Source of the DNA: Nitrosopumilus sp.
GTDB taxonomy: Archaea; Thermoproteota; Nitrososphaeria; Nitrososphaerales; Nitrosopumilaceae
NCBI GenBank assembly: GCA_965197525.1
Contig: OZ240211.1
Coordinates: 544,001-608,000, forward strand
Length of the DNA: 64,000 bases
Direction: 5' to 3'
Shown here: positions 617-52,790 of the stretch, in pieces
How the letters are laid out: each line of letters starts with the position of its first letter
Position numbering within the stretch: the first letter of the stretch is position 1
Notes under the pieces: generated by a model
The model's database searches: none
What the model was told of the DNA's origin: nothing
What the model saw: only the letters and a program-made list of their open reading frames with translations
Program-made: the position numbers and the translations under genes

Positions 617-1531
617 TTATAATGCCATTTTAAGGATGGTAGCAAGATTACGTTCCGCCATAAAACTAGGATCTTGATTTTGAAGATTAATCTTCTTGGA
701 TATTCGGCTCATTGCATAAACAGAGATCTGGTAAAACAACGACCATAGATAGCTGCTTTGGTTCAAGTTATAAAGTCGTAGTAAGAATGCAAAAAGCCGT
801 TTTTGTCGAGGGTAATGCTCAGAGACATACTCCAAGATATACTCTTTAGAATTATCAATCTTGTATTTGAGATGATCAAACACTTCAGTTTGTGATGTGT
901 AGCCTGTTTGTGCGATCTTGATCTTACCTCTTTGCATAGCATGTAATACATCATCAATGTTATTCTCAGAGTCGATAACATTTACGCATCTTCCAAGAGT
1001 TGACAATACATGCGAATCACTACCTGCAACTTGAATCATGCCATTATCATGCGCAAACTGTAAAGCGCGTACATTTGAAAAGATGTCAATATTATTACTG
1101 TTAAACACCTCTATCATATCACATTGGTTAGCATTATCACGTAATGCATTAATTAGACCAAATGGATGTGGCGCAGAAGATACTGCATCCTGATCTCGTA
1201 TTGCGTCTAGAATCTCCTCAAAAGACAGACAAGGGGCAATAGCATCGTGGAGTCCATATGCCAAAACATGTTCACCTAAATCAGTAGTAATTTCCTCAGC
1301 TGCAAAAACATCCATGTTTTTGAATTTTTCATGTGTGTTTTTATATTCTAAAAGTTGTTTATACCCGTCAAGAGTGTTATGGTTTGTGACAAAGACTGCA
1401 TCTAATCCTTGATTGTAAGAATACTCTAATTGATCACGAATAGAGATCGGGCAGTCGTACTGCGGCTCTTCATCACCAACATGAAAATTTGAAAAAGAGT
1501 TATGGCAATGTAACTCAGTATTAATTGGCAT
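617..1531 (-). CDS. PHP-domain metallophosphoesterase
   Basis: ELHCH, VTNHN, EEI, HPF and GSDSH motifs. Confidence 0.85.
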   Translation of the reverse strand: MPINTELHCHNSFSNFHVGDEEPQYDCPISIRDQLEYSYNQGLDAVFVTNHNTLDGYKQLLEYKNTHEKFKNMDVFAAEEITTDLGEHVLAYGLHDAIAPCLSFEEILDAIRDQDAVSSAPHPFGLINALRDNANQCDMIEVFNSNNIDIFSNVRALQFAHDNGMIQVAGSDSHVLSTLGRCVNVIDSENNIDDVLHAMQRGKIKIAQTGYTSQTEVFDHLKYKIDNSKEYILEYVSEHYPRQKRLFAFLLRLYNLNQSSYLWSLFYQISVYAMSRISKKINLQNQDPSFMAERNLATILKMAL

Positions 1532-1580
1532 TTATTAATAATATACGCTTTAAGATTATAACTTTTGTTAATTAAAAAAA

Positions 1581-3217
1581 GGGAATTACATACTTGGATT
1601 ACATTATACGCCACTTATTTATAATACACCGATTATTAACTGGATGGAAAAAGAAATAGGAGATTTTATTTATAGAACAGTGATTGTAAAACCAAGGCAG
1701 ACAAAAGAACTGTCATTGAAGGCACGCAGGATTGCAAACTTTCAGACGTATTTTTTCAACATGGACGTAGAGGCAGGACTGGTTGAAAAATATGACAAAA
1801 TCAAGACAAGCCGTACCATTACTGACATACATCACACCATGCCATGGAGCAACAAATACCACACCAATGTGGCAACAACTGCGTTCCAACAGGGGCATGA
1901 TACGGCAGACAAACATTTGAAATCTTGCGCAAAAAAACGTAGGGTACGAAACTGGGCAAAAAAGACTGGCGGTAAGAACCACAACTGGCACACATCATTT
2001 AAAAATCTCAAACCAAACAAATGGATTGACAGAAACAGTTTGTTCAGAAACGCCAAAAATGCAAAACATGCATCCATAACAGTAAACGGTCAGAATCCCT
2101 CGCTAAGGATGGGAAAGTGGAAAAAACTGTACATGAACCTGCCCGGTATGGGCCAGGTGGAGCTGTTGTCGTCTTTGAAGAGTCTTCCAAAGCAACTGGT
2201 ATGTGAAAGAGACAAAAACAATACCAACAAGTTCTACCAGACCAACATTGTGTCATACAGGCTTGTAGAGAACACCAAAAAAATCACTGTCAATACAAAC
2301 GATTCGAACCGCACGTTTGAGATCCATCTGACACTAAAAATACAGAGACCTAAAAATACGGATCGTGCAGTCGTATGCGGAATAGACATGGGAGTTAGGA
2401 AATCCCTGGTAGTTCATGACGGAATAAACACCGATTTTTACAGGACGCCTTATACCTGTAGGAGAAAAAAAGATGATGTGATCTCAAAACAACAGTCAAA
2501 AAGAGACGGTTACAAACTGCATAGTAACAGATGGAAACAAAATGATCGTAAATTGAAGAAGATGGAAAAAACACTCAGCAACAGAAGAACCGAGCACAAT
2601 AATTTCCTTGCCAAACAGATTGTGATGAGAACAGGAGTAATAGTCATGGAAAAACTAAACATTGGCAATATGACTGCAAAAAATGAAAAGTGGAAAAGCG
2701 GCCTTAACAGGGAGATTTACGGGGCAGGTATGGGAAGAATGGGAAAGAGAATAAAAATGACTGCCGAAAACCATGGAACCAAAACGCTTGAGATTGTTCC
2801 ACATTACACCAGCATAACGTGTAGTAGGTGCAATATGATCAACTGTGACTCTAGAACTACAAGGGATGTGTTTCAATGCGTATACTGTGGATTTCTGTGC
2901 GATGCAGACGATAACGCAGGCGCAAACATCAGACATTACGGACTTCCGTGCATACGAAGGCTCCCGCTTGTAGACAGATATGGAAACTACAGGTATGACA
3001 GCATGGAAAATATTATTTTAGCTAATAAAAATGGCACATCTAATAGTGTCAGTGTTATTAGTGGCGGTAGGGATTATCGTCACAAGACAGAAGAATCAAA
3101 ACATGGCTTACACCATGTTGTTTCTAAAAAAGACGGCAAGAACCAAGCTGTGAATGATTTGTTGGACTGTCAGAAAAAAACCTTGGTGCAGAAACGTAAC
3201 CTAGGTATATAATTCCC
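1581..3217 (+). mobile_element. TIR-bounded tnpB-only element, family A (1637 bp)
   Basis: 25-bp imperfect TIR (GGGAATTACATACTTGGATTACATT vs GGGAATTATATACCTAGGTTACGTT, 20/25); 8-bp TSD TAAAAAAA at 1573-1580 and 3218-3225; ends confirmed by second copy at 18158-18543. Confidence 0.9.
1644..3212 (+). CDS. tnpB: TnpB-family RNA-guided endonuclease, 522 aa
   Basis: RuvC-I GIDMG, RuvC-II VMEKL, Zn finger CSRC..CVYC, RuvC-III DADDNAGANI; long C-terminal tail. Confidence 0.9.
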   Translation: MEKEIGDFIYRTVIVKPRQTKELSLKARRIANFQTYFFNMDVEAGLVEKYDKIKTSRTITDIHHTMPWSNKYHTNVATTAFQQGHDTADKHLKSCAKKRRVRNWAKKTGGKNHNWHTSFKNLKPNKWIDRNSLFRNAKNAKHASITVNGQNPSLRMGKWKKLYMNLPGMGQVELLSSLKSLPKQLVCERDKNNTNKFYQTNIVSYRLVENTKKITVNTNDSNRTFEIHLTLKIQRPKNTDRAVVCGIDMGVRKSLVVHDGINTDFYRTPYTCRRKKDDVISKQQSKRDGYKLHSNRWKQNDRKLKKMEKTLSNRRTEHNNFLAKQIVMRTGVIVMEKLNIGNMTAKNEKWKSGLNREIYGAGMGRMGKRIKMTAENHGTKTLEIVPHYTSITCSRCNMINCDSRTTRDVFQCVYCGFLCDADDNAGANIRHYGLPCIRRLPLVDRYGNYRYDSMENIILANKNGTSNSVSVISGGRDYRHKTEESKHGLHHVVSKKDGKNQAVNDLLDCQKKTLVQKRNLGI

Positions 3218-3234
3218 TAAAAAAAAATAATGTA

Positions 3235-4002
3235 TCATCTAAAGAGATCTTCGTGCTCTGCACGAATCAGGTCGTTGATGCTAGGATGATACAAGTCATG
3301 ATCAGAATAATCATTGCCAAAATCATTTTTAAATTCAAAGCTGTGATTACGAATAATTGCAACTGGGCATCTCAGAGACTTACCCATTACCAACTCTGCT
3401 GCAGAAGATAGTTCATCTGCAATAGCGATTGCTGTAACACGCAATACTCTTTTAAAAGAGTCAATACACCCGGTATAGTCCAAAATCGGACCAAGGCCAG
3501 ATACGCCAATTGCATGATTAGTTTGACCGTTTCTAAAAGGTCGTCCAAAGGTATCAGATATTATTACTGCTACATTTTTGTTTGTCTGCTCAAAAATTTG
3601 TGTTCTGATTCTATTTGCAGAGTGATCAGAATTTACAGGTAACAGAGTAACATATCCTTGTGCAATGTTGCTCTCATCAACACCGGCGTTGGCGCAGATA
3701 AACCCATGCTTTGTCTCAACGATCAAGACACCGTTGTACATTCTAACAATTCGTTTTGATTCAGATAAAATGAGTTCTACAATTCTGGGATCCTTTTGGT
3801 ACTGGGAACCAATTCCTTGCGCCAATAATGAAGGAGTGACAGAAGATAGATCAATCAGACGACCTTTTTCTTGTTTTGAGATAATCTTTTGAGCAACAAC
3901 TAAAATGTCTCCATCACGTATTGGTTGAGCTTGGATTATCAAGCTAGAGATATCATCAGATGGTGTAATCTCCTTTTCAATGCAGAGTGGGATGATTTCC
4001 AA
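3235..4002 (-). CDS. cofE: Coenzyme F420-0:L-glutamate ligase
   Basis: VVAQKIISKQE, ICANAGVDESN, SDTFGRPFR motifs. Confidence 0.95.
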   Translation of the reverse strand: MEIIPLCIEKEITPSDDISSLIIQAQPIRDGDILVVAQKIISKQEKGRLIDLSSVTPSLLAQGIGSQYQKDPRIVELILSESKRIVRMYNGVLIVETKHGFICANAGVDESNIAQGYVTLLPVNSDHSANRIRTQIFEQTNKNVAVIISDTFGRPFRNGQTNHAIGVSGLGPILDYTGCIDSFKRVLRVTAIAIADELSSAAELVMGKSLRCPVAIIRNHSFEFKNDFGNDYSDHDLYHPSINDLIRAEHEDLFR

Positions 4003-16903: not shown

Positions 16904-18154
16904 ATGGTAAATACAAATTCGGTTATAGGTGGAAGTATCGGGGCAATAATGATAATTGCGCTAGTTGTAACTGTGTTTGTTGCACCTCCAGAATCGATGA
17001 GAACGGTCATAAATGATTATGGTGATGATGATGATGATTATAATGATATAGACGATGTAACGGTTAATGCAATCAAAAATGAGAGCATGCTAAAAGATGA
17101 AATTAAAGCACTCAAAGGCGAGATTGAGGCATTAAGCAAAATAACAACAGTAACGGCAAAAGATGAAGGCAAATTATCGTTAATTGAGATCTTTGAGAGA
17201 TCAGAACCGAGCGTAGTCAGCGTCAATGTACATAGAAATCAGACTACAAACATAATAAATGACAATGGCGGTAACAGCCTAGGCTCAGGTTTTGTATTTG
17301 ACATAGAAGGGTACATAATAACAAACGAGCATGTTGTAACGAATGCAACAAAGATAGTAATAACATTTCTTGACGGCAGAGAATACAATGCAGAGATTAT
17401 AGGATATGATGCAGACACAGATATTGCAGTACTCAAAGTTAATTCAGAGTTAGCATCACTGCGTCCACTGATCATAGGAGATTCATCAGAGCTCAAAGTT
17501 GGAGAGACGATAGCTGCGATTGGAAATCCGTTTGGACTATCAGGTTCGATGACATCAGGGATTGTAAGTCAGTTAGAAAGACTGCTTCCGGCAGAATCAG
17601 GATTTTCAATTCCGGGCATAATCCAGACAGATGCTGCAATTAATCCAGGAAATTCAGGAGGGCCGCTGCTCAACTTGTACGGAGAGGTAGTTGGTATCAA
17701 CACTGCAATACAGTCAACTACAGGGGAGTTTACAGGCGTGGGGTTCGCAATACCTTCACAGACAGTCTCCAAGATTGTTCCCAGACTCATAGAGGAAGGA
17801 GAGTACAAACATCCATGGATCGGGATCTCAGGCAGAGATATTGATCCAGACCTAGCGAAAGCGTTGAATCTAAAAGAGGCAGTAGGGTTTCTCATAATTA
17901 CAGTCGTGGAGGATAGTCCTGCATACAAAGCAGGTTTGATAGGTTCTGACCAAACAGTAGAGATTGACGGAGTCGCTCATACAATAGGAGGAGATATAAT
18001 TATAGCAGTAGACGGAATCGAAGTAAGAAAGATTGATGATATCTTAGTTCATCTGCAGGGGACAAAGGCAGTAGGAGATGAGATGGTATTGGAGGTTCTC
18101 AGAGACGGAAGAACAACAGAGATTACAGTTTTGTTACAGGCAAGACCCGGTTAA
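16904..18154 (+). CDS. htrA: HtrA/DegP serine protease with PDZ domain
   Basis: ITNEHVV, DTDIAVL, QTDAAINPGNSGGPL; N-terminal TM anchor. Confidence 0.95.
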   Translation: MVNTNSVIGGSIGAIMIIALVVTVFVAPPESMRTVINDYGDDDDDYNDIDDVTVNAIKNESMLKDEIKALKGEIEALSKITTVTAKDEGKLSLIEIFERSEPSVVSVNVHRNQTTNIINDNGGNSLGSGFVFDIEGYIITNEHVVTNATKIVITFLDGREYNAEIIGYDADTDIAVLKVNSELASLRPLIIGDSSELKVGETIAAIGNPFGLSGSMTSGIVSQLERLLPAESGFSIPGIIQTDAAINPGNSGGPLLNLYGEVVGINTAIQSTTGEFTGVGFAIPSQTVSKIVPRLIEEGEYKHPWIGISGRDIDPDLAKALNLKEAVGFLIITVVEDSPAYKAGLIGSDQTVEIDGVAHTIGGDIIIAVDGIEVRKIDDILVHLQGTKAVGDEMVLEVLRDGRTTEITVLLQARPG

Positions 18155-18157
18155 CAT

Positions 18158-18543
18158 GGGAATTATATACCTAGGTTACGTTTCTGCACCAAGGTTTTTT
18201 TCTGACAGTCCAACAAATCATTCACAGCTTCCTGTTGGAACGCAGTTGTTGCCACATTGGTGTGGTATTTGTTGCTCCATGGCATGGTGTGATGTATGGT
18301 AGTAATGGTACGGCTTGTCTTGATTTTGTCATATTTTTCAACCAGTCCTGCCTCTACGCCCATGTTGAAAAAATACGTCTGAAAGTTTGCAATCTTGCGT
18401 GCCTTTAATGACAGTTCTTTTGTCTGCCTTGGTTTTACAATCACTGTTCTATAAATAAAATCTTTTATTTCTTTTTCCATCCAGTTAATAATCGGTGTAT
18501 TATATATAATTGACGTATAATGTAATCCAAGTATGTAATTCCC
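18158..18543 (-). mobile_element. MITE derived from family-A tnpB element (386 bp)
   Basis: Same TIRs as 1581-3217; perfect 8-bp TSD GTTAACAT at 18150-18157 and 18544-18551; corresponds to 1581-1893 joined to 3145-3217. Confidence 0.95.
18163..18480 (-). pseudogene. tnpB: In-frame internally deleted tnpB (105 aa, no RuvC)
   Basis: First 83 aa and last 22 aa match the 522-aa TnpB. Confidence 0.93.
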
Positions 18544-18552
18544 GTTAACATA

Positions 18553-19852
18553 CAGTAGTCGGAAATGTACCCATTAGGCAGGTTTTCCGACATCATACGG
18601 TTGACCCACCATCCTACATAATTCCAATGCAGCCATTGCTGTAGCATATACGACAAGTGCCAAAGTCACACGATCATAACTCGAATCTGCACGATACTGC
18701 TCCACTGCCCACGCGTTGTACATGAACAGCGAGACGTAAAACATGATTACCCTAAACGACGCATTGCGGCTTGTTGTCCTCGGGCGTACCTGCTCGACTT
18801 GCTTGTATCCTGTCTCTATCCCCCACCTTCTCCGGTACTCCTCCGGAAGCGTCTCAATCTCGTCTAGTGCCCTGGTAGGAGAAAGATTGGTGGCAAAGAC
18901 ATGATATCTTTCCGTGGTATTGACATCAGGATCGTCTATCTTTTTTGAGGGTGTGATTATCAATGTGAATGTGACAGACTGGCCTGCTGCGTTTCTGACG
19001 GTGTACTGCGAGACTGCCTTGCGTAATTTATCGTGATGCTCTTGTATCATCCTCTTTATCCCCGTGTTCTTGACTGCAGGCATCAGGAACTTGCGTCCGT
19101 GTTCTGATACAAGTTTGATTATCTCAGTCGAGTAAAACTCGCGGTCCATCAGCAGCAACCGGGCCCGTATCCTGTAATCCACGAGTTTTTGGACGAATTT
19201 ACGCACAAAGTCGGCGTCATCCACGCTGCGCGTGACCTGCATGCACTCTAAAATGGCCGGAACCTGTTCTGCTACCACATGCATTGTTGCGTAACACTCG
19301 AACTTGCTTGTACCGCCCTTTGGTTTGGATCTTGTCAGATGTGACATGTTGTCCTTGTCGTGCCTTGGTATCAGGTGTTTATCTATTGCTACTAGTACGC
19401 CCCCCTTGTACCGGCACGTATTCTTGGCAAGCCTTGCGGTGCGTGTGATCATATCCATGCAGAGCTCGTCTGCACTGTCTGATTCCAGCGAGTTTATCAT
19501 GTTGCGAAACCACTTGGGCGACGGCATCTTCTTTTTGGCGTGCTTGAGCAGCCGGATTGCCTCCTCAGAAGCTATGTTGGATTCAGACATCTTCATCAGT
19601 ATGGCTGCAAACTCGCTTACCCCGTATTGGGCATTGTTCCTCGTAGAGAATCCTATGGGTGCAGACTCTAGTATTCCTGACAAGGTATTAAGTATCCTTT
19701 CTCCAATCTTATTGTGGTGTACCTGCCCACCTTTTTGCGTTAACACTAAGGTGGGTAAGGGCACTGTAGGTAATAGATCAGTATGTTCGAAGAATGTTAA
19801 CATAATTGAGAACATCTGTTGGTTGATTTAGGGAGTACATTTCCGACTACTG
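18553..19852 (-). mobile_element. ISH3-family insertion sequence (1300 bp)
   Basis: 18-bp perfect TIR CAGTAGTCGGAAATGTAC; 5-bp TSD ACATA (18548-18552, 19853-19857); GC-rich interior. Confidence 0.92.
18574..19815 (-). CDS. ISH3/IS4-like DDE transposase
   Basis: AIDKH, LMDREF, YRRRWGIETGY, RPRTTS motifs. Confidence 0.92.
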   Translation of the reverse strand: MFSIMLTFFEHTDLLPTVPLPTLVLTQKGGQVHHNKIGERILNTLSGILESAPIGFSTRNNAQYGVSEFAAILMKMSESNIASEEAIRLLKHAKKKMPSPKWFRNMINSLESDSADELCMDMITRTARLAKNTCRYKGGVLVAIDKHLIPRHDKDNMSHLTRSKPKGGTSKFECYATMHVVAEQVPAILECMQVTRSVDDADFVRKFVQKLVDYRIRARLLLMDREFYSTEIIKLVSEHGRKFLMPAVKNTGIKRMIQEHHDKLRKAVSQYTVRNAAGQSVTFTLIITPSKKIDDPDVNTTERYHVFATNLSPTRALDEIETLPEEYRRRWGIETGYKQVEQVRPRTTSRNASFRVIMFYVSLFMYNAWAVEQYRADSSYDRVTLALVVYATAMAALELCRMVGQPYDVGKPA

Positions 19853-19897
19853 ACATAGAATACAAGCATAAATACGACCAAGCAAGAGAAGATTCTG

Positions 19898-23477: not shown

Positions 23478-24764
23478 GGTTCTGTGAAGTTATCAGGAGT
23501 TAACCCCTATAACTCGACTTTGACATATCGACTATTCGGATTACCAATGGTGTGCTGGGTTCCGTCATCGCAGGCTCAAAAGTGCCAGACTGTGCTTCAC
23601 ATATGTCACCTCTACTACCCCTAAACCTAGGGGGCAGTTTGCGTGATATGTTCATGGCAGCGATAATATCCCTATCCATAAACAAACCGCAATTATTACA
23701 CGACAATTTACGATGTTGTTGCATGTCCTCTTGGAGTCTCTTTCCGCATTGTGGACACTGCGTGCTCGTGTTTCTTGGGTCTACTATCTCGACTGGAGGT
23801 AGTCCGACCCATTGGGCTTTGTATTCTATTTGGCGTTGTAACTCGTAGAATTGCCACCCGTTCAATCTACGTCTGTACTTGTTACCTTGAGTGTTTCCTT
23901 TTCGGTACAATTTTCTTATTCCTTTCAGGTTTTCCATGACGATTGCAGTCTTGTTTTTGACTGCGTTGTCTACTATATCCTTTGAGATTCTGTGGATGTA
24001 CTGCTTTGCTCTGTTAGTCAGTCTTCTCTGTTTTTCCTTGTAGAACTGATTTTTCTTCCTGCGATCATTTCTGTGGAAGCCTGCCCTGGCGTGTATTGTG
24101 TTCTCCTTTATGGATAACAGTTTGTTTGTCTTGTAGACTGTCACCTCTTTCTCGTTCCCGCACGTCACATTTCTTAGGTTTCTGTCTATTCCCACTTTCT
24201 TGGTGCACTCTATCTCTTGTACTGTTTTTGAAACACAAAGACTGATGTTCAGAGCAGTCAATGAAAACGAGCGCACCGTCAAGGCAGGATCAGATAGGAT
24301 TTTTTGGGTGTGATCGTTGAGTAAAATGTTGATTGGGTTATGTTTCTTGTATGGGATTGTTAATAGTGCACCGTTGTGTTTTATGCCGTAACAGTTTGTC
24401 ATAAAGGGATTTTTGACTATTGGGTCTCTTATTCTGACACCTCGTTTGATTGATTGTTTTCTGTTTGATAATATGCCTGCAGCTCTTGATATTGCACATA
24501 TCTTGTATGTTGATAAAATGCCATAGTTACGTAATTCATGATAACATAACATGGACAACCTCTTCATATTGTGAGTGTCTTCTTTCAACCCTATCTTGAT
24601 GCAATGATTGACCATCTTTGTGAATATATCCATCATATCCATTAGATCAGAGTTCGGCGTATATTTCTGTGATATTGACTTTATCGCTTTCAACGAATAT
24701 CTTACGGTTTAGAGGTTATACATTTTAGGAATTGACATATAACTCACGATAACTTGACAGAACC
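23478..24764 (-). mobile_element. TIR-bounded tnpB-only element, family B (1287 bp)
   Basis: 25-bp TIR GGTTCTGTGAAGTTATCAGGAGTTA vs GGTTCTGTCAAGTTATCGTGAGTTA; perfect 8-bp TSD TGATCTAT at 23470-23477 and 24765-24772. Confidence 0.95.
23500..24693 (-). CDS. tnpB: TnpB-family RNA-guided endonuclease, 397 aa
   Basis: VGIDRN, IVMENL, CPQC..CNNC, DRDIIAAMNI. Confidence 0.93.
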   Translation of the reverse strand: MKAIKSISQKYTPNSDLMDMMDIFTKMVNHCIKIGLKEDTHNMKRLSMLCYHELRNYGILSTYKICAISRAAGILSNRKQSIKRGVRIRDPIVKNPFMTNCYGIKHNGALLTIPYKKHNPINILLNDHTQKILSDPALTVRSFSLTALNISLCVSKTVQEIECTKKVGIDRNLRNVTCGNEKEVTVYKTNKLLSIKENTIHARAGFHRNDRRKKNQFYKEKQRRLTNRAKQYIHRISKDIVDNAVKNKTAIVMENLKGIRKLYRKGNTQGNKYRRRLNGWQFYELQRQIEYKAQWVGLPPVEIVDPRNTSTQCPQCGKRLQEDMQQHRKLSCNNCGLFMDRDIIAAMNISRKLPPRFRGSRGDICEAQSGTFEPAMTEPSTPLVIRIVDMSKSSYRG

Positions 24765-40839: not shown

Positions 40840-41989
40840 TTATTGAGGGATAAGCGAGGCGAAATTTTCCCTATAAAGCGAAGCGTTCTGAATGATAGTT
40901 TTCCATTTATTGTCGCCCTTGATGTCGATTCCTGCTCTAAGAGCTGGCGTATCTCCATCCAAACTCATGTGGGGTCTTATGTAGTTATGATATAATTTGA
41001 TGCCGTCTATTGCAGGAGAATCATCTTTTTTGAGTCCACGAAACACTTTCTCACGGTCTCTGAACTCCCCGTTTAGCCTTTCCTGTATGTTGTTGTTTGC
41101 TACTTGGTTTTTGAAATGTACCTCTTTGATGTGTTTGCTTGGCTTGTGTAAAAAATTCTTTGGTGCAAACTCTTTTTTGAAAGCGTCATTATACGCTGGT
41201 AGACCATCCGTTACAAAAACACTTGGAGTTTTCTTTGTTACATCTTTACCCATCTTTAACAAACTTTGTGCATCATGTTTGAACTTGCTATCAGCTACCT
41301 CTTGAGCAATCCAAAATCTTGTCTCGTTATCCATCATGGCAAACAAATATTTGCGATCTCCTTTGACTTTGAGCCATACCTCATCTGCGTGCCATTTCTC
41401 ACCTACTTGCGGTGTAATAGTGGACAAGTAATTATCCATAAGTTTGGTGTATTTTTTTACCCAGTTGTATATTGAGATATGGCTCATGTTGACACCTTGT
41501 AACTTTAGAAATTTTTGTACTCCTCTAATGGATTCGCCTGTAAAGTACAGTTGCATGGCACTTGTAATAACCTGGGGTGAGGCGTGCATCTTTTCAAATC
41601 CAAGATTGAATGAAAAATATTTTTTGCATTTCATACATTGGTATTTCTGTATAGAGTGGGTCTTGTTCTTTCTGATGCCTTTCTTTTTGATGTCTTCTGA
41701 CTTGCAGAACTGGCAACATGTAACTGTAATCTCATCAACTACTGTAATATTCTGTCTTACCTCTTCTCTAATCTTAAGACTAATTTCAACTGCGTGTATA
41801 TGTTTACAACATACTTTACAGAACTGATGATCTGGACACTGACATGTCCAACCTGCCTCTGTGGATACTATCTCATAGGTATTCTCTGATGACTGTGATT
41901 TTACAAAGTAACGGCTATCATCAACCCTTTCTATCTGGTTTTGTCTCTCTGCTATGATTTGACCTCTAGCCTGTCTTCGATTCGTACAT
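40840..41989 (-). pseudogene. SWIM Zn finger + Zn ribbon + IS6/IS240-type DDE transposase with a +1 frameshift near the start
   Basis: Frame is open upstream of 41634 (CQCPDH..CCKHIHAV; CQFC..CMKC); WHADEVW, VTDGLPAY, NNIQERLN, YHNYIRPH; ATG at 41989 is out of frame by one base (span 1150 bp). Confidence 0.85.
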
Positions 41990-51524: not shown

Positions 51525-52790
51525 TTAGAAAACAAATTTGAGGATTAGAAATATTGCCGCAAATACGGTTAGAAATACAATTCCCGAGATGCTCAGAATT
51601 TTTAGAAATTTAGATGGTTGATCGTCTTTTGGCAAACAAGTTCCCGTAACTAGTTTGAAATTAAAGATGGCAATGATTGGCGCTACAAGAAACGATAGAA
51701 CGGTTGCAAAATCAACTAGCTCTTTTAGATTATTGTGAAAATTAGATACGACTACAAAAGATCCGCTTGTAATAATAATTAAAAAGACGACATAGAGTAG
51801 TCTAAACTTGGAGTGTATTTTGAGTTCGTGACGAGAGAATAACAGTTCCACGGTTCGTTGCAATGACCTAGAATAACCATCAAGAACTGCAAGAATTGTC
51901 CCAAACATTATAGTAAATGCAGAAGCTGCAATGATTACATAGCTCCACTCACCGATAGTTGTAGTGTATAATGTAACTATTTTGTTTGCAAATAACGAGT
52001 TATTATTTGGCAACTCTTCACCTGAACCATAGAAGATAAAGGTGCCAAGGGTTACAAACATCGCAGCTAGTATCCCAGTTATTATGTATGATAGTTTAAA
52101 CTCGAACAGAGTCTCTCTGAGCTTTGGCATGTATTTGGTCTGTTTAATTCTCTCCAAGGTCCACAAACTATTCCAAGTAGAGAGATCGATTGCAGTAGGC
52201 ATCCAGCCCATCAACGCAAGCAGAAAGAACATGCCAGAAACAGTCCACAGATCAGCAGGTACAAAATCAGGTACCGGGTCTATAGGCCCATTATACAACG
52301 CAAACAATACTGCAGATGTTGTAGATACAACCAAAACGATGGCAATAACCTTGATAAGACTATCAAAGACTCGATATCTCCCAACTCCTAAAATTACAAC
52401 ACATACTGCAAACAAGACAATTAACGTGTATGCACCAAAGTGATCAAGATTAAATAGATTCTCAAAAAATCCTGCAGTAACAAACCCAACGGCGCCTGTA
52501 ACAAACAGCATGGTAGTTACAGTGATTAGAAAATATAGCCATAATGCAGGTTTGCCAAGTTTTTTGTAACCGTCAATCAAACTAGTTTGAGTAGAGTTAG
52601 CGTAACGAGATCCATATTCAAAGAAAGGATACTTGATCACTGTTACTAGAATTACAAATCCCAAAATTAGTAGGCCGTAATCAGCACCTGCTCTTGTGGA
52701 TTGTACTAGATGAGAGACACCTATAGCAGTACTTGCAAACAAGATACCGGGTCCTGCAGTCTTTGAAAACTGTGATAGCCTGGCATGCAT
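51525..52790 (-). CDS. NRAMP-like divalent metal transporter
   Basis: GPGILFASTAIGVSHLVQSTRAGA, GWMPT; about 11 TM segments. Confidence 0.85.
   Translation of the reverse strand: MHARLSQFSKTAGPGILFASTAIGVSHLVQSTRAGADYGLLILGFVILVTVIKYPFFEYGSRYANSTQTSLIDGYKKLGKPALWLYFLITVTTMLFVTGAVGFVTAGFFENLFNLDHFGAYTLIVLFAVCVVILGVGRYRVFDSLIKVIAIVLVVSTTSAVLFALYNGPIDPVPDFVPADLWTVSGMFFLLALMGWMPTAIDLSTWNSLWTLERIKQTKYMPKLRETLFEFKLSYIITGILAAMFVTLGTFIFYGSGEELPNNNSLFANKIVTLYTTTIGEWSYVIIAASAFTIMFGTILAVLDGYSRSLQRTVELLFSRHELKIHSKFRLLYVVFLIIITSGSFVVVSNFHNNLKELVDFATVLSFLVAPIIAIFNFKLVTGTCLPKDDQPSKFLKILSISGIVFLTVFAAIFLILKFVF

What the first reader, a model, noticed from the sequence alone, without database searches (positions are those of the whole stretch)
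1581..3217. A second, independent TIR+8-bp-TSD tnpB element (family A, GGGAATT ends)
Seen: a different 522-aa TnpB sits between 25-bp imperfect TIRs (all five mismatches are transitions) with TSD TAAAAAAA, and its stop codon lies inside the right TIR. It shows no obvious similarity to family B beyond RuvC and Zn-finger motifs. Inference: TIR capture of TnpB occurred at least twice in this lineage, which suggests a general strategy. An 8-bp TSD is compatible with IS6, IS1 or IS1595 enzymes; no transposase with GGGAATT ends is in this window.
Basis: partly seen in the sequence, partly recalled or inferred. Interest (0 to 1): 0.85.

Follow-up and report, generated by a model that had tools for sequence, protein, structure and literature searches.

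The report
TnpB cassette on IS1595 transposon ends
A 1.6-kb jumping cassette in a Nitrosopumilus-type archaeon carries only the RNA-guided nuclease TnpB and a likely guide-RNA scaffold, but it has the inverted ends and 8-bp target duplication of IS1595-family transposons, so a borrowed DDE transposase most likely moves it; the general arrangement was published in 2023, and only this partner family appears to be unnamed.

Summary
Window 1581-3217 is a 1637-bp element with 25-bp inverted ends (20/25 identical, all five mismatches transitions), the duplication TAAAAAAA, and one ORF. That ORF is an intact 522-aa TnpB whose stop codon lies in the right end.

- **It is mobile.** The genome holds 7 full-length copies (two interrupted by other insertions), one truncated copy and a 386-bp deletion derivative (window 18158-18543). 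All eight elements with both ends have perfect, different 8-bp duplications. A public run holds the empty site.
- **The ends belong to an IS1595-family IS group.** In a congener (G111), homologues of an IS1595 transposase lie inside elements with the same GGGRATTATATAC termini and perfect 8-bp duplications. This genome encodes an intact homologue (P0113), 7 kb beyond the window.
- **Other movers are unlikely.** No Y1, serine, IS1 or ISL3 transposase was found in the genome.
- **TnpB looks functional.** dN/dS between copies is 0.2-0.3, and the last ~195 nt form a conserved, covarying RNA structure.
- **Two captures are supported.** Family B uses IS6-like ends.

The concept (TnpB in DDE transposons, solo copies moved in trans) is published (Altae-Tran 2023). 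I found no paper naming IS1595 as a partner. This scan has already reported the same thing, on another copy in this genome and in other genomes.

The parts
1573..1580 (.). Left copy of the 8-bp target-site duplication TAAAAAAA
   Evidence: The empty site in run X4 keeps only one copy.
1581..1605 (+). Left terminal inverted repeat (GGGAATTACATAC...), an IS1595-type end
   Evidence: The same terminal 13-mer bounds transposase-bearing IS1595 elements in G111.
1618..1625 (+). TTTATAAT, a TATA-box-like motif about 19 nt upstream of the tnpB ATG, suggesting a leaderless transcript
   Evidence: Read. This is an inference from the usual archaeal promoter layout and was not tested.
1644..3212 (+). tnpB, 522 aa (P0001), with catalytic D248/E336/D422 and zinc-finger C393/C396/C412/C415 present
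   Evidence: dN/dS between genomic copies is 0.22-0.50. A distant homologue of ISDra2 TnpB 8EXA.
3022..3217 (+). Candidate omega-RNA (guide-RNA) scaffold, overlapping the 3' end of tnpB and ending at the right end of the element
   Evidence: Consensus fold on five sequences down to 42% protein identity. 90.7% of cells are paired against 26-45% when partners are slid, and 20 compensatory pairs against 1-5. Synonymous divergence drops in this stretch. An RNA-library contig covers 3032-3218 and runs on into a flank. There is no Rfam match.
3193..3217 (-). Right terminal inverted repeat (GGGAATTATATAC... on the minus strand); it contains the tnpB stop codon
3218..3225 (.). Right copy of the target-site duplication TAAAAAAA
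18158..18543 (-). 386-bp internal-deletion derivative (MITE) of the same element: bases 1-313 joined to bases 1565-1637, flanked by the duplication GTTAACAT (18150-18157 and 18544-18551)
   Evidence: It shows that the ends suffice for movement and that a non-low-complexity 8-bp duplication is made.

Best explanation
The element is a non-autonomous member of an IS1595-family insertion-sequence group. It is a mobile insertion cassette whose only passenger is tnpB together with a structured RNA at its 3' end.

**How it moves.** It has no transposase. A trans-acting IS1595-family DDE transposase recognises the GGGRATTAYATAC termini. This would be P0113 or a relative; P0113 is encoded 7 kb beyond the window at genome 615175-616176. 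The transposase inserts the cassette with staggered cuts 8 bp apart, mostly into A/T-rich DNA.

**What is shown.**
- The ends, the duplications and the empty site.
- Multiple copies and deletion derivatives.
- The same termini and 8-bp duplications on transposase-bearing elements in a congener.
- No Y1 or serine transposase found in the genome.

**What is inferred.** P0113 is the enzyme that acts here.

**What TnpB may do (inferred, about 40% confidence).** By analogy with IS605/IS607, TnpB would load the RNA transcribed across the right end, so that its guide is the duplication plus downstream flank. It would then cut copies of the site that lack the cassette, so that recombination restores or spreads it. 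Purifying selection on TnpB, and constraint on synonymous sites in the RNA region, argue that both are used.
For: **Mobility.**
- Copies and perfect 8-bp duplications.
- Empty site, and a further insertion with duplication GCCATATG, in run X4.
- MITEs of 386 and 165 bp with the same ends.

**IS1595 link.**
- P0113 matches the NCBIfam IS1595 transposase model at 154 bits (cut-off 75). It also matches the Pfam DDE_Tnp_IS1595 domain at full length, and the zinc-ribbon domain below its cut-off (19.8 against 25.4 bits).
- G111 elements L063 (2810 bp, duplication GACAGGTC) and L064 (8757 bp, duplication GAACGGCC) carry P0113 homologues between GGGRATTATATAC ends. L065 (1513 bp, first 32 nt of each end identical) does so too.
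- Across 121 genomes of the genus, 6 of the 8 genomes with two or more such ends have this transposase, against 1 of the other 113.
- A/T-rich 8-bp duplications and inverted ends are family traits (PMC12561309).

**Deep association of this TnpB clade with these ends.**
- Metagenome relatives at 42% and 55% protein identity (L020, L062) have the same termini and perfect 8-bp duplications.
- A 443-aa sister clade (A2) shares the ends and the ATA-TAA stop in the repeat.

**Other movers.**
- No Y1, serine, IS1 or ISL3 transposase found.
- IS6-like elements have different ends.

**TnpB and RNA in use:**
Against: - P0113's own element looks crippled. The end-like 25-mer lies about 1 kb upstream of the gene instead of about 58 bp as in relatives. 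IS6-type material lies in between, and no matching right end was found within 25 kb.
- Identity between the cassette ends and that 25-mer is 17-18/25 by my count, and solid only over the terminal 13 nt.
- G002 and G144 have such ends but no P0113-type gene at E <= 1e-20.
- No two copies are identical (the closest pair is 98.5%), so current activity is not shown.
- No element with both the transposase and tnpB inside one pair of ends was found.
- No conserved motif lies 5' of the duplication in 10 family-A insertions. A TAM-dependent homing role therefore has no support from the flanks.
- The RNA evidence comes from assembled contigs of one metatranscriptome. These cannot show strand or ends, and may include DNA.
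Confidence: 0.8

Rival explanations
1. The cassette is moved by the IS6-like (PF13610) DDE transposases of this genome. They also make 8-bp duplications and appear to move the 45-copy family B TnpB elements.
For: Seven PF13610 genes are present, one of them in this window. The IS6-like element at genome 746475-748444 has perfect inverted ends and the 8-bp duplication CTATTGTG. IS6-type ends abut the IS1595-type 25-mer at two loci.
Against: The IS6-like and family B termini start GGTTCTGT and share only the first GG with GGGAATTA. The GGGRATTATATAC termini are found on IS1595-transposase elements in G111. They also co-occur with that transposase across the genus.
Confidence: 0.06
2. All copies are fossils. 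The cassette was mobile in an ancestor or in another host, no enzyme in this genome can move it now, and P0113 is an unrelated or inactive remnant.
For: Copies are 95-98.5% identical and none are identical. Two copies are interrupted and one is truncated. P0113 lacks a recognisable right end.
Against: - Five copies keep full-length ORFs with dN/dS 0.2-0.3.
- The site is polymorphic between related strains.
- The P0113 ORF is intact with a full-length DDE domain.

This rival concerns present activity only. It does not dispute what the element is.
Confidence: 0.1
3. It is an ordinary IS200/IS605 (IS1341-group) or IS607 tnpB-only element, moved by a Y1 or serine TnpA, and the inverted ends and direct repeats are coincidental.
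For: The TnpB family membership itself. tnpB-only elements are conventionally filed under IS1341.
Against: All eight elements of this genome with both ends, and two metagenome relatives, have inverted ends and perfect 8-bp duplications. The empty site differs by exactly the element plus 8 bp. No Y1 or serine recombinase gene was found in the genome.
Confidence: 0.01

Closest known systems
DDE-transposase-associated TnpB branches (DDE-1 to DDE-6), and solo TnpBs within the same ends, Altae-Tran et al. 2023 PNAS (PMC10691335)
   Same: Inverted terminal repeats. The 3' end of tnpB lies within 250 bp of the transposon end. Solo TnpBs sit between ends like those of transposase-bearing elements, implying mobilisation in trans.
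   Different: The paper's main text names IS630 as a partner family. A 2026 review (PMC13565253) lists ISL2, IS630 and IS1031. Neither names IS1595. Whether TnpB-A falls inside one of the six branches could not be tested, because the paper's supplementary files are not held.
IS1595 family insertion sequences with passenger genes (Siguier, Gagnevin and Chandler 2009, cited in PMC12561309); mobile insertion cassettes
   Same: Inverted ends, A/T-rich 8-bp direct repeats, and passenger genes next to or instead of the transposase. In G111 the same ends carry a methylase-like gene or about 7 kb of cargo.
   Different: The cassette has no transposase, and its passenger is an RNA-guided nuclease with an RNA scaffold that runs into the right repeat.
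IS200/IS605 family, IS1341 group (tnpB-only), with ISDra2 TnpB as the studied example
   Same: The protein family, the RuvC D-E-D triad with zinc finger, and a structured RNA overlapping the 3' end of the gene and ending at the right end of the element.
   Different: IS200/IS605 elements have no inverted ends, make no duplications and insert 3' of a fixed 4-5-nt motif that serves as the TAM. Here there are inverted ends, 8-bp duplications and no fixed flanking motif. The genome also has no Y1 TnpA.
Fanzor in eukaryotic DDE transposons (Tc1/mariner, hAT and others)
   Same: A TnpB homologue riding inside inverted-repeat, duplication-making DDE transposons.
   Different: This is a prokaryotic TnpB with the canonical catalytic layout. 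Fanzor-bearing families often have fixed short duplications that form part of the TAM, whereas these 8-bp duplications are variable.
Family B TnpB elements of the same genome (window 23478-24764 and about 45 copies)
   Same: A tnpB-only cassette with inverted ends, 8-bp duplications and the stop codon near the right end.
   Different: A different TnpB clade (26% identity over the core only), different termini (GGTTCTGT) and a different partner, the IS6-like PF13610 elements.

Membership tests
TnpB RNA-guided endonuclease | Profile matches above the curated cut-offs | tested here: met
   PF01385 46.4 against 30.5 bits and PF07282 46.5 against 26.3 bits. NF040570 110.5 against 100 bits.
TnpB RNA-guided endonuclease | RuvC D-E-D triad and a CxxC...CxxC zinc finger | tested here: met
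   D248, E336, D422, C393, C396, C412 and C415 are invariant in 15 clade members.
TnpB RNA-guided endonuclease | Omega RNA encoded at the 3' end of the gene, ending at the right end of the element | tested here: inconclusive
   A conserved, covarying structure lies at 3022-3217, with reduced dS there and an RNA-library contig over it. Only five sequences were available, the structure was derived from the same alignment, and RNA ends and binding are not shown.
TnpB RNA-guided endonuclease | Guide- and TAM-dependent DNA cleavage | not testable with these tools
   This needs biochemistry. No conserved flank motif was seen in 10 insertions.
IS200/IS605 (IS1341 group) | No terminal inverted repeats and no target duplication; subterminal hairpins; insertion 3' of a fixed tetra- or pentanucleotide | tested here: not met
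   25-bp inverted ends and 8-bp duplications in all eight elements of this genome that have both ends. No fixed flank motif.
IS200/IS605 (IS1341 group) | A Y1 (HUH) TnpA available in cis or in trans | tested here: not met
   PF01797 was not found in the 99%-complete single-contig genome.
IS607 | A serine recombinase TnpA; no inverted ends or duplication | tested here: not met
   PF00239 was not found. Inverted ends and duplications are present.
IS1595 family (as a non-autonomous derivative) | Terminal inverted repeats and 8-bp, A/T-rich direct repeats | tested here: met
   The family trait is taken from PMC12561309.
IS1595 family (as a non-autonomous derivative) | Ends shared with elements that encode an IS1595-type DDE transposase | tested here: met
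   G111 elements L063, L064 and L065 carry P0113 homologues between GGGRATTATATAC ends, two of them with perfect 8-bp duplications. Co-occurrence across 121 genomes.
IS1595 family (as a non-autonomous derivative) | Encodes its own DDE transposase with an N-terminal zinc ribbon | tested here: not met
   tnpB is the only gene-sized ORF with a family match, and no DDE domain is in the element. That is why it is filed as a non-autonomous cassette. The genome encodes P0113 elsewhere.
DDE-associated TnpB branches (Altae-Tran 2023) | Inverted terminal repeats, with the 3' end of tnpB within 250 bp of the end | tested here: met
   The stop codon lies 5 bp from the element end.
DDE-associated TnpB branches (Altae-Tran 2023) | Phylogenetic placement inside one of the branches DDE-1 to DDE-6 | not testable with these tools
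   The tree and supplementary files are not held.

The most novel reading that the evidence does not exclude
TnpB-A and its RNA are a working retention or homing module for a DDE transposon that makes variable 8-bp duplications. The nuclease would work with no fixed TAM or a very relaxed one, with a guide that starts in the duplication. That would explain why selection keeps it in a genome where about 50 TnpBs ride on two DDE families and no Y1 or serine transposase exists. It would extend 'restorative homing' to duplication-making cut-and-paste elements and point to a near TAM-less natural TnpB.
Probability: 0.12. Interest if true: 0.75.

Novelty: new member of a known kind. Interest (0 to 1): 0.4.

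Why it matters
TnpB is the ancestor of Cas12, and its natural role has been worked out only for IS605 and IS607. Those excise without scars next to a fixed motif that doubles as the nuclease's TAM.

This genome is different. It has about 50 tnpB genes and no Y1 or serine transposase. Two unrelated TnpB clades ride on two different DDE transposon families (IS1595-like and IS6-like), both making 8-bp duplications. Family A shows purifying selection on the nuclease and constraint on the overlapping RNA, yet no TAM-like flank motif.

That makes one question testable: what does an RNA-guided nuclease do for a transposon that leaves duplications and picks variable targets?

The partnership with IS1595 seems not to be named in the papers I could search. 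The principle is published, and this scan has met it repeatedly, so it is a useful added case rather than a discovery of kind.

Tried and rejected
- **Related loci in GTDB representative genomes.** A scan with the clade alignment gave only one unrelated weak hit, so the clade is rare there.
- **Contigs of four metagenome relatives** (P0003, P0005, P0009, P0013) came without DNA. Their gene tables show solo tnpB; a 105-aa IS1595 fragment lies upstream of P0003.
- **Second IS1595-type gene** of the genome (338464-339318). It is only 25% identical to P0113 and has no GGGRATT ends, so I rejected it as the partner.
- **IS3-type element beside a GGGAATTATATAG end** (genome 1604343), and IS630/IS3 fragments beside the end at 52607. 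These are later insertions next to decayed ends, not partners.
- **TAM search.** The 5' flanks and the duplications of 10-12 insertions gave no consensus.
- **Rfam** has no match in 1400-3400.
- **A mis-set coordinate.** My first fold alignment included a wrong row from a tandem repeat outside the element. I redid it.
- **Supplements of PMC10691335** are not held, so the DDE families of branches DDE-1 to DDE-5 could not be read there.
- **My guess at the family B autonomous element** (L019) was off target. I replaced it with a direct scan of the IS6-like genes.
- **RNA run X5.** Parts of the ORF have no contig cover. This says nothing about expression.

Full report
**Observation**

- Two 25-bp inverted ends are 20/25 identical, and all five mismatches are transitions.
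- TAAAAAAA lies on both sides.
- One ORF of 522 aa (1644-3212) has its stop codon (ATA TAA) inside the right repeat.
- The protein is a TnpB. It passes Pfam OrfB_IS605 and Cas12f1-like_TNB, and NCBIfam guided_TnpB, above their cut-offs.
- In an alignment with 14 relatives down to 42% identity, the RuvC residues D248, E336 and D422 and four zinc-finger cysteines are invariant.
- It is a distant homologue of the solved ISDra2 TnpB.

**Is it a mobile element?**

The window lies in a 2.21-Mb single-contig genome, described in earlier scan notes as a sponge-associated Nitrosopumilus type.

BLAST of the element against the genome finds the following:
- five contiguous full-length copies;
- two full-length copies interrupted by other insertions, one of 16.8 kb and one by a 1.3-kb IS;
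- one truncated copy;
- a 386-bp deletion derivative inside this window (18158-18543).

All eight elements that have both ends carry perfect, mutually different 8-bp duplications. The derivative's is the non-repetitive GTTAACAT.

A contig from public run X4, about 92% identical in the flanks, joins window 1572 directly to 3218. It skips 1645 = 1637 + 8 bases, which is the unoccupied site. The same run holds the element at another place with duplication GCCATATG.

So the low-complexity duplication at this copy is real, and the element inserts with an 8-bp stagger.

**Who moves it?**

The genome has about 50 tnpB matches but no Y1 transposase, serine recombinase, IS1 or ISL3 transposase. Two kinds of DDE gene known to give 8-bp duplications are present: IS6-like (PF13610) and IS1595-like (PF12762).

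*In this genome:*
- None of the 16 GGGRATTAYATAC ends encloses a transposase.
- One such end, GGGGATTATATAC..., lies 1 kb upstream of an intact 333-aa IS1595-family transposase, P0113 (genome 615175-616176, 7 kb beyond the window). It scores 154 bits against NCBIfam (cut-off 75), with a full-length DDE domain and a below-cut-off zinc-ribbon match.
- The same end lies upstream of a truncated second copy of the gene.

*In other genomes of the genus:*
- Homologues of P0113 (65-75% identity) lie about 58 bp inside a GGGRATTATATA end.
- Three G111 elements are complete:

| Element | Length | Ends | Duplication | Contents |
|---|---|---|---|---|
| L063 | 2810 bp | 25 identical terminal nt | GACAGGTC | transposase plus a methylase-like gene |
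| L064 | 8757 bp | 37/40 identical | GAACGGCC | transposase plus several cargo genes |
| L065 | 1513 bp | first 32 nt identical | none | transposase |

*Across 121 genomes of the genus:*
- 6 of the 8 genomes with two or more such ends carry this transposase, against 1 of the other 113.
- Fisher p is about 5e-8, but related genomes are not independent.

Inverted ends with A/T-rich 8-bp repeats, and passenger genes, are traits of the IS1595 family (PMC12561309 and the Siguier 2009 paper it cites).

I conclude that the cassette is a non-autonomous IS1595-family element, a mobile insertion cassette.

**How old is the association?**

Metagenome relatives of TnpB-A have the same terminal 13-mer and perfect 8-bp duplications:
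- L062, at 55% protein identity, has TTTTATTT.
- L020, at 42% protein identity, has TCATGTCT.

A sister clade of 443-463-aa TnpBs (A2) has about 30% identity to A. It occurs in this genome at 1984842-1986191 and in G018, G002 and G144. It uses the same ends and even the same ATA-TAA stop in the repeat.

A 165-bp MITE with these ends lies at genome 891809-891973 with duplication TTTCATAT.

**Is TnpB in use?**
- Five copies keep the full ORF.
- Pairwise dN/dS between copies is 0.22-0.50, and 0.2-0.3 for all but the two closest pairs.
- In comparisons with the window's copy, synonymous divergence is 0.13-0.15 in the first 1290 nt but 0-0.055 in the last 276 nt. That fits a second constraint on that stretch.
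- The last ~195 nt (3022-3217) fold into a consensus structure in five sequences. 90.7% of cells are paired, against 26-45% when partners are slid. There are 20 compensatory pairs against 1-5, and no shuffle of 500 reaches the observed values.
- The structure was derived from the same small alignment, so this is support, not proof.
- A contig from a sponge metatranscriptome covers 3032-3218 and runs on 250 nt into another flank, at higher depth than the ORF pieces. Contigs show neither strand nor ends, so this is only a hint.
- There is no Rfam family.
- The 386-bp derivative lacks most of this region, so the RNA and TnpB are not needed in cis for movement.

**What TnpB does here**

By analogy with IS605/IS607, the guide would be the duplication plus downstream flank. 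The TAM would be the bases 5' of the left duplication. In 10 family-A insertions I see no conserved base there, nor within the duplications.

Either the nuclease has a very relaxed TAM, or only some insertions are protected, or it has another role. This part of the mechanism is inference, at about 40% confidence.

**Two captures**

Family B elements (about 45 copies, 397-aa TnpB, for example window 23478-24764) have termini GGTTCTGTGAAG and 8-bp duplications. IS6-like elements of this genome start with the same GGTTCTGTG. One example is 746475-748444, with perfect ends and duplication CTATTGTG.

TnpB-A scores against the other clades as follows:

| Compared with | Score |
|---|---|
| Family B | 37 bits |
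| An ordinary HTH-bearing TnpB (P0020) | 108 bits |
| A2 | 114 bits |

**Known or new?**

Altae-Tran et al. 2023 described six DDE-associated TnpB branches with inverted terminal repeats. They also described solo TnpBs between the same ends, implying mobilisation in trans. A 2026 review lists the DDE partners as ISL2, IS630 and IS1031. A search for TnpB with IS1595 found no paper describing the pairing.

The scan itself has already reported TnpB on IS1595-type ends. One report was on another copy of this very family in this genome, and several were in other genomes.

I therefore rate it a new member of a known kind, of moderate interest.

**Weak points**
- P0113's own element looks crippled. 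Its end is displaced by about 1 kb of IS6-type material, and no right end was found.
- Identity between the cassette ends and that 25-mer is 17-18/25 by my count.
- No identical copies exist, so current activity is unproven.
- G002 and G144 have such ends without the transposase.

Noticed in passing
window 18552-19870: A 1.3-kb IS lies directly beside the 386-bp derivative. It has inverted ends CAGTAGTCGGAAATGTAC and a 413-aa DDE_Tnp_1 (IS4/IS5-type) transposase (18577-19815, minus strand). Another copy of the same IS interrupts family A copy c7 at genome 1331426-1332729.
   Followed up: partly
genome G000:C1:33773-50591 (L001, L031): One family A copy is split by a 16.8-kb insertion bounded by inverted ends AGTTAACCCAAA and a short duplication. 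It carries IS4/IS5-type DDE genes at both ends and two giant repeat proteins (1255 and 1842 aa). It looks like a composite transposon.
   Followed up: partly
L014:251-290 (genome 614150) and L016 (genome 1395933, minus strand): At two loci the IS1595-type terminal 25-mer is followed at once by an IS6-type end (GGTTCTGT...). About 0.9 kb of different sequence then precedes the 5' part of the IS1595 transposase gene. IS6-type elements may target this end, or the two end types may have fused.
   Followed up: partly
L014:1180-1225: A tRNA-like fragment (T-arm, GGTTCGAATCC) lies just upstream of the P0113 gene.
   Followed up: no
L018 (genome 891809-891973): A 165-bp MITE with GGGGATTATATA ends and the perfect duplication TTTCATAT.
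   Followed up: partly
whole genome G000: About 21.6% of the genome (477 kb) is repeated at 250 bp or longer. There are about 50 tnpB matches, yet no Y1, serine, IS1 or ISL3 transposase was found.
   Followed up: partly
L067 (G144:C1:2315662-2321533): A 5.9-kb element with the same ends and duplication AGATTATA carries a 452-aa TnpB plus other genes, including one that looks like an IS110-type transposase. The ends therefore also move larger TnpB-bearing cargo.
   Followed up: no
window 40981-41397 (genome 584981-585397, minus strand): An IS6-like (PF13610) transposase gene lies inside this window, with a GGTTCTGTTAAC end about 1.2 kb away (genome 583727).
   Followed up: no
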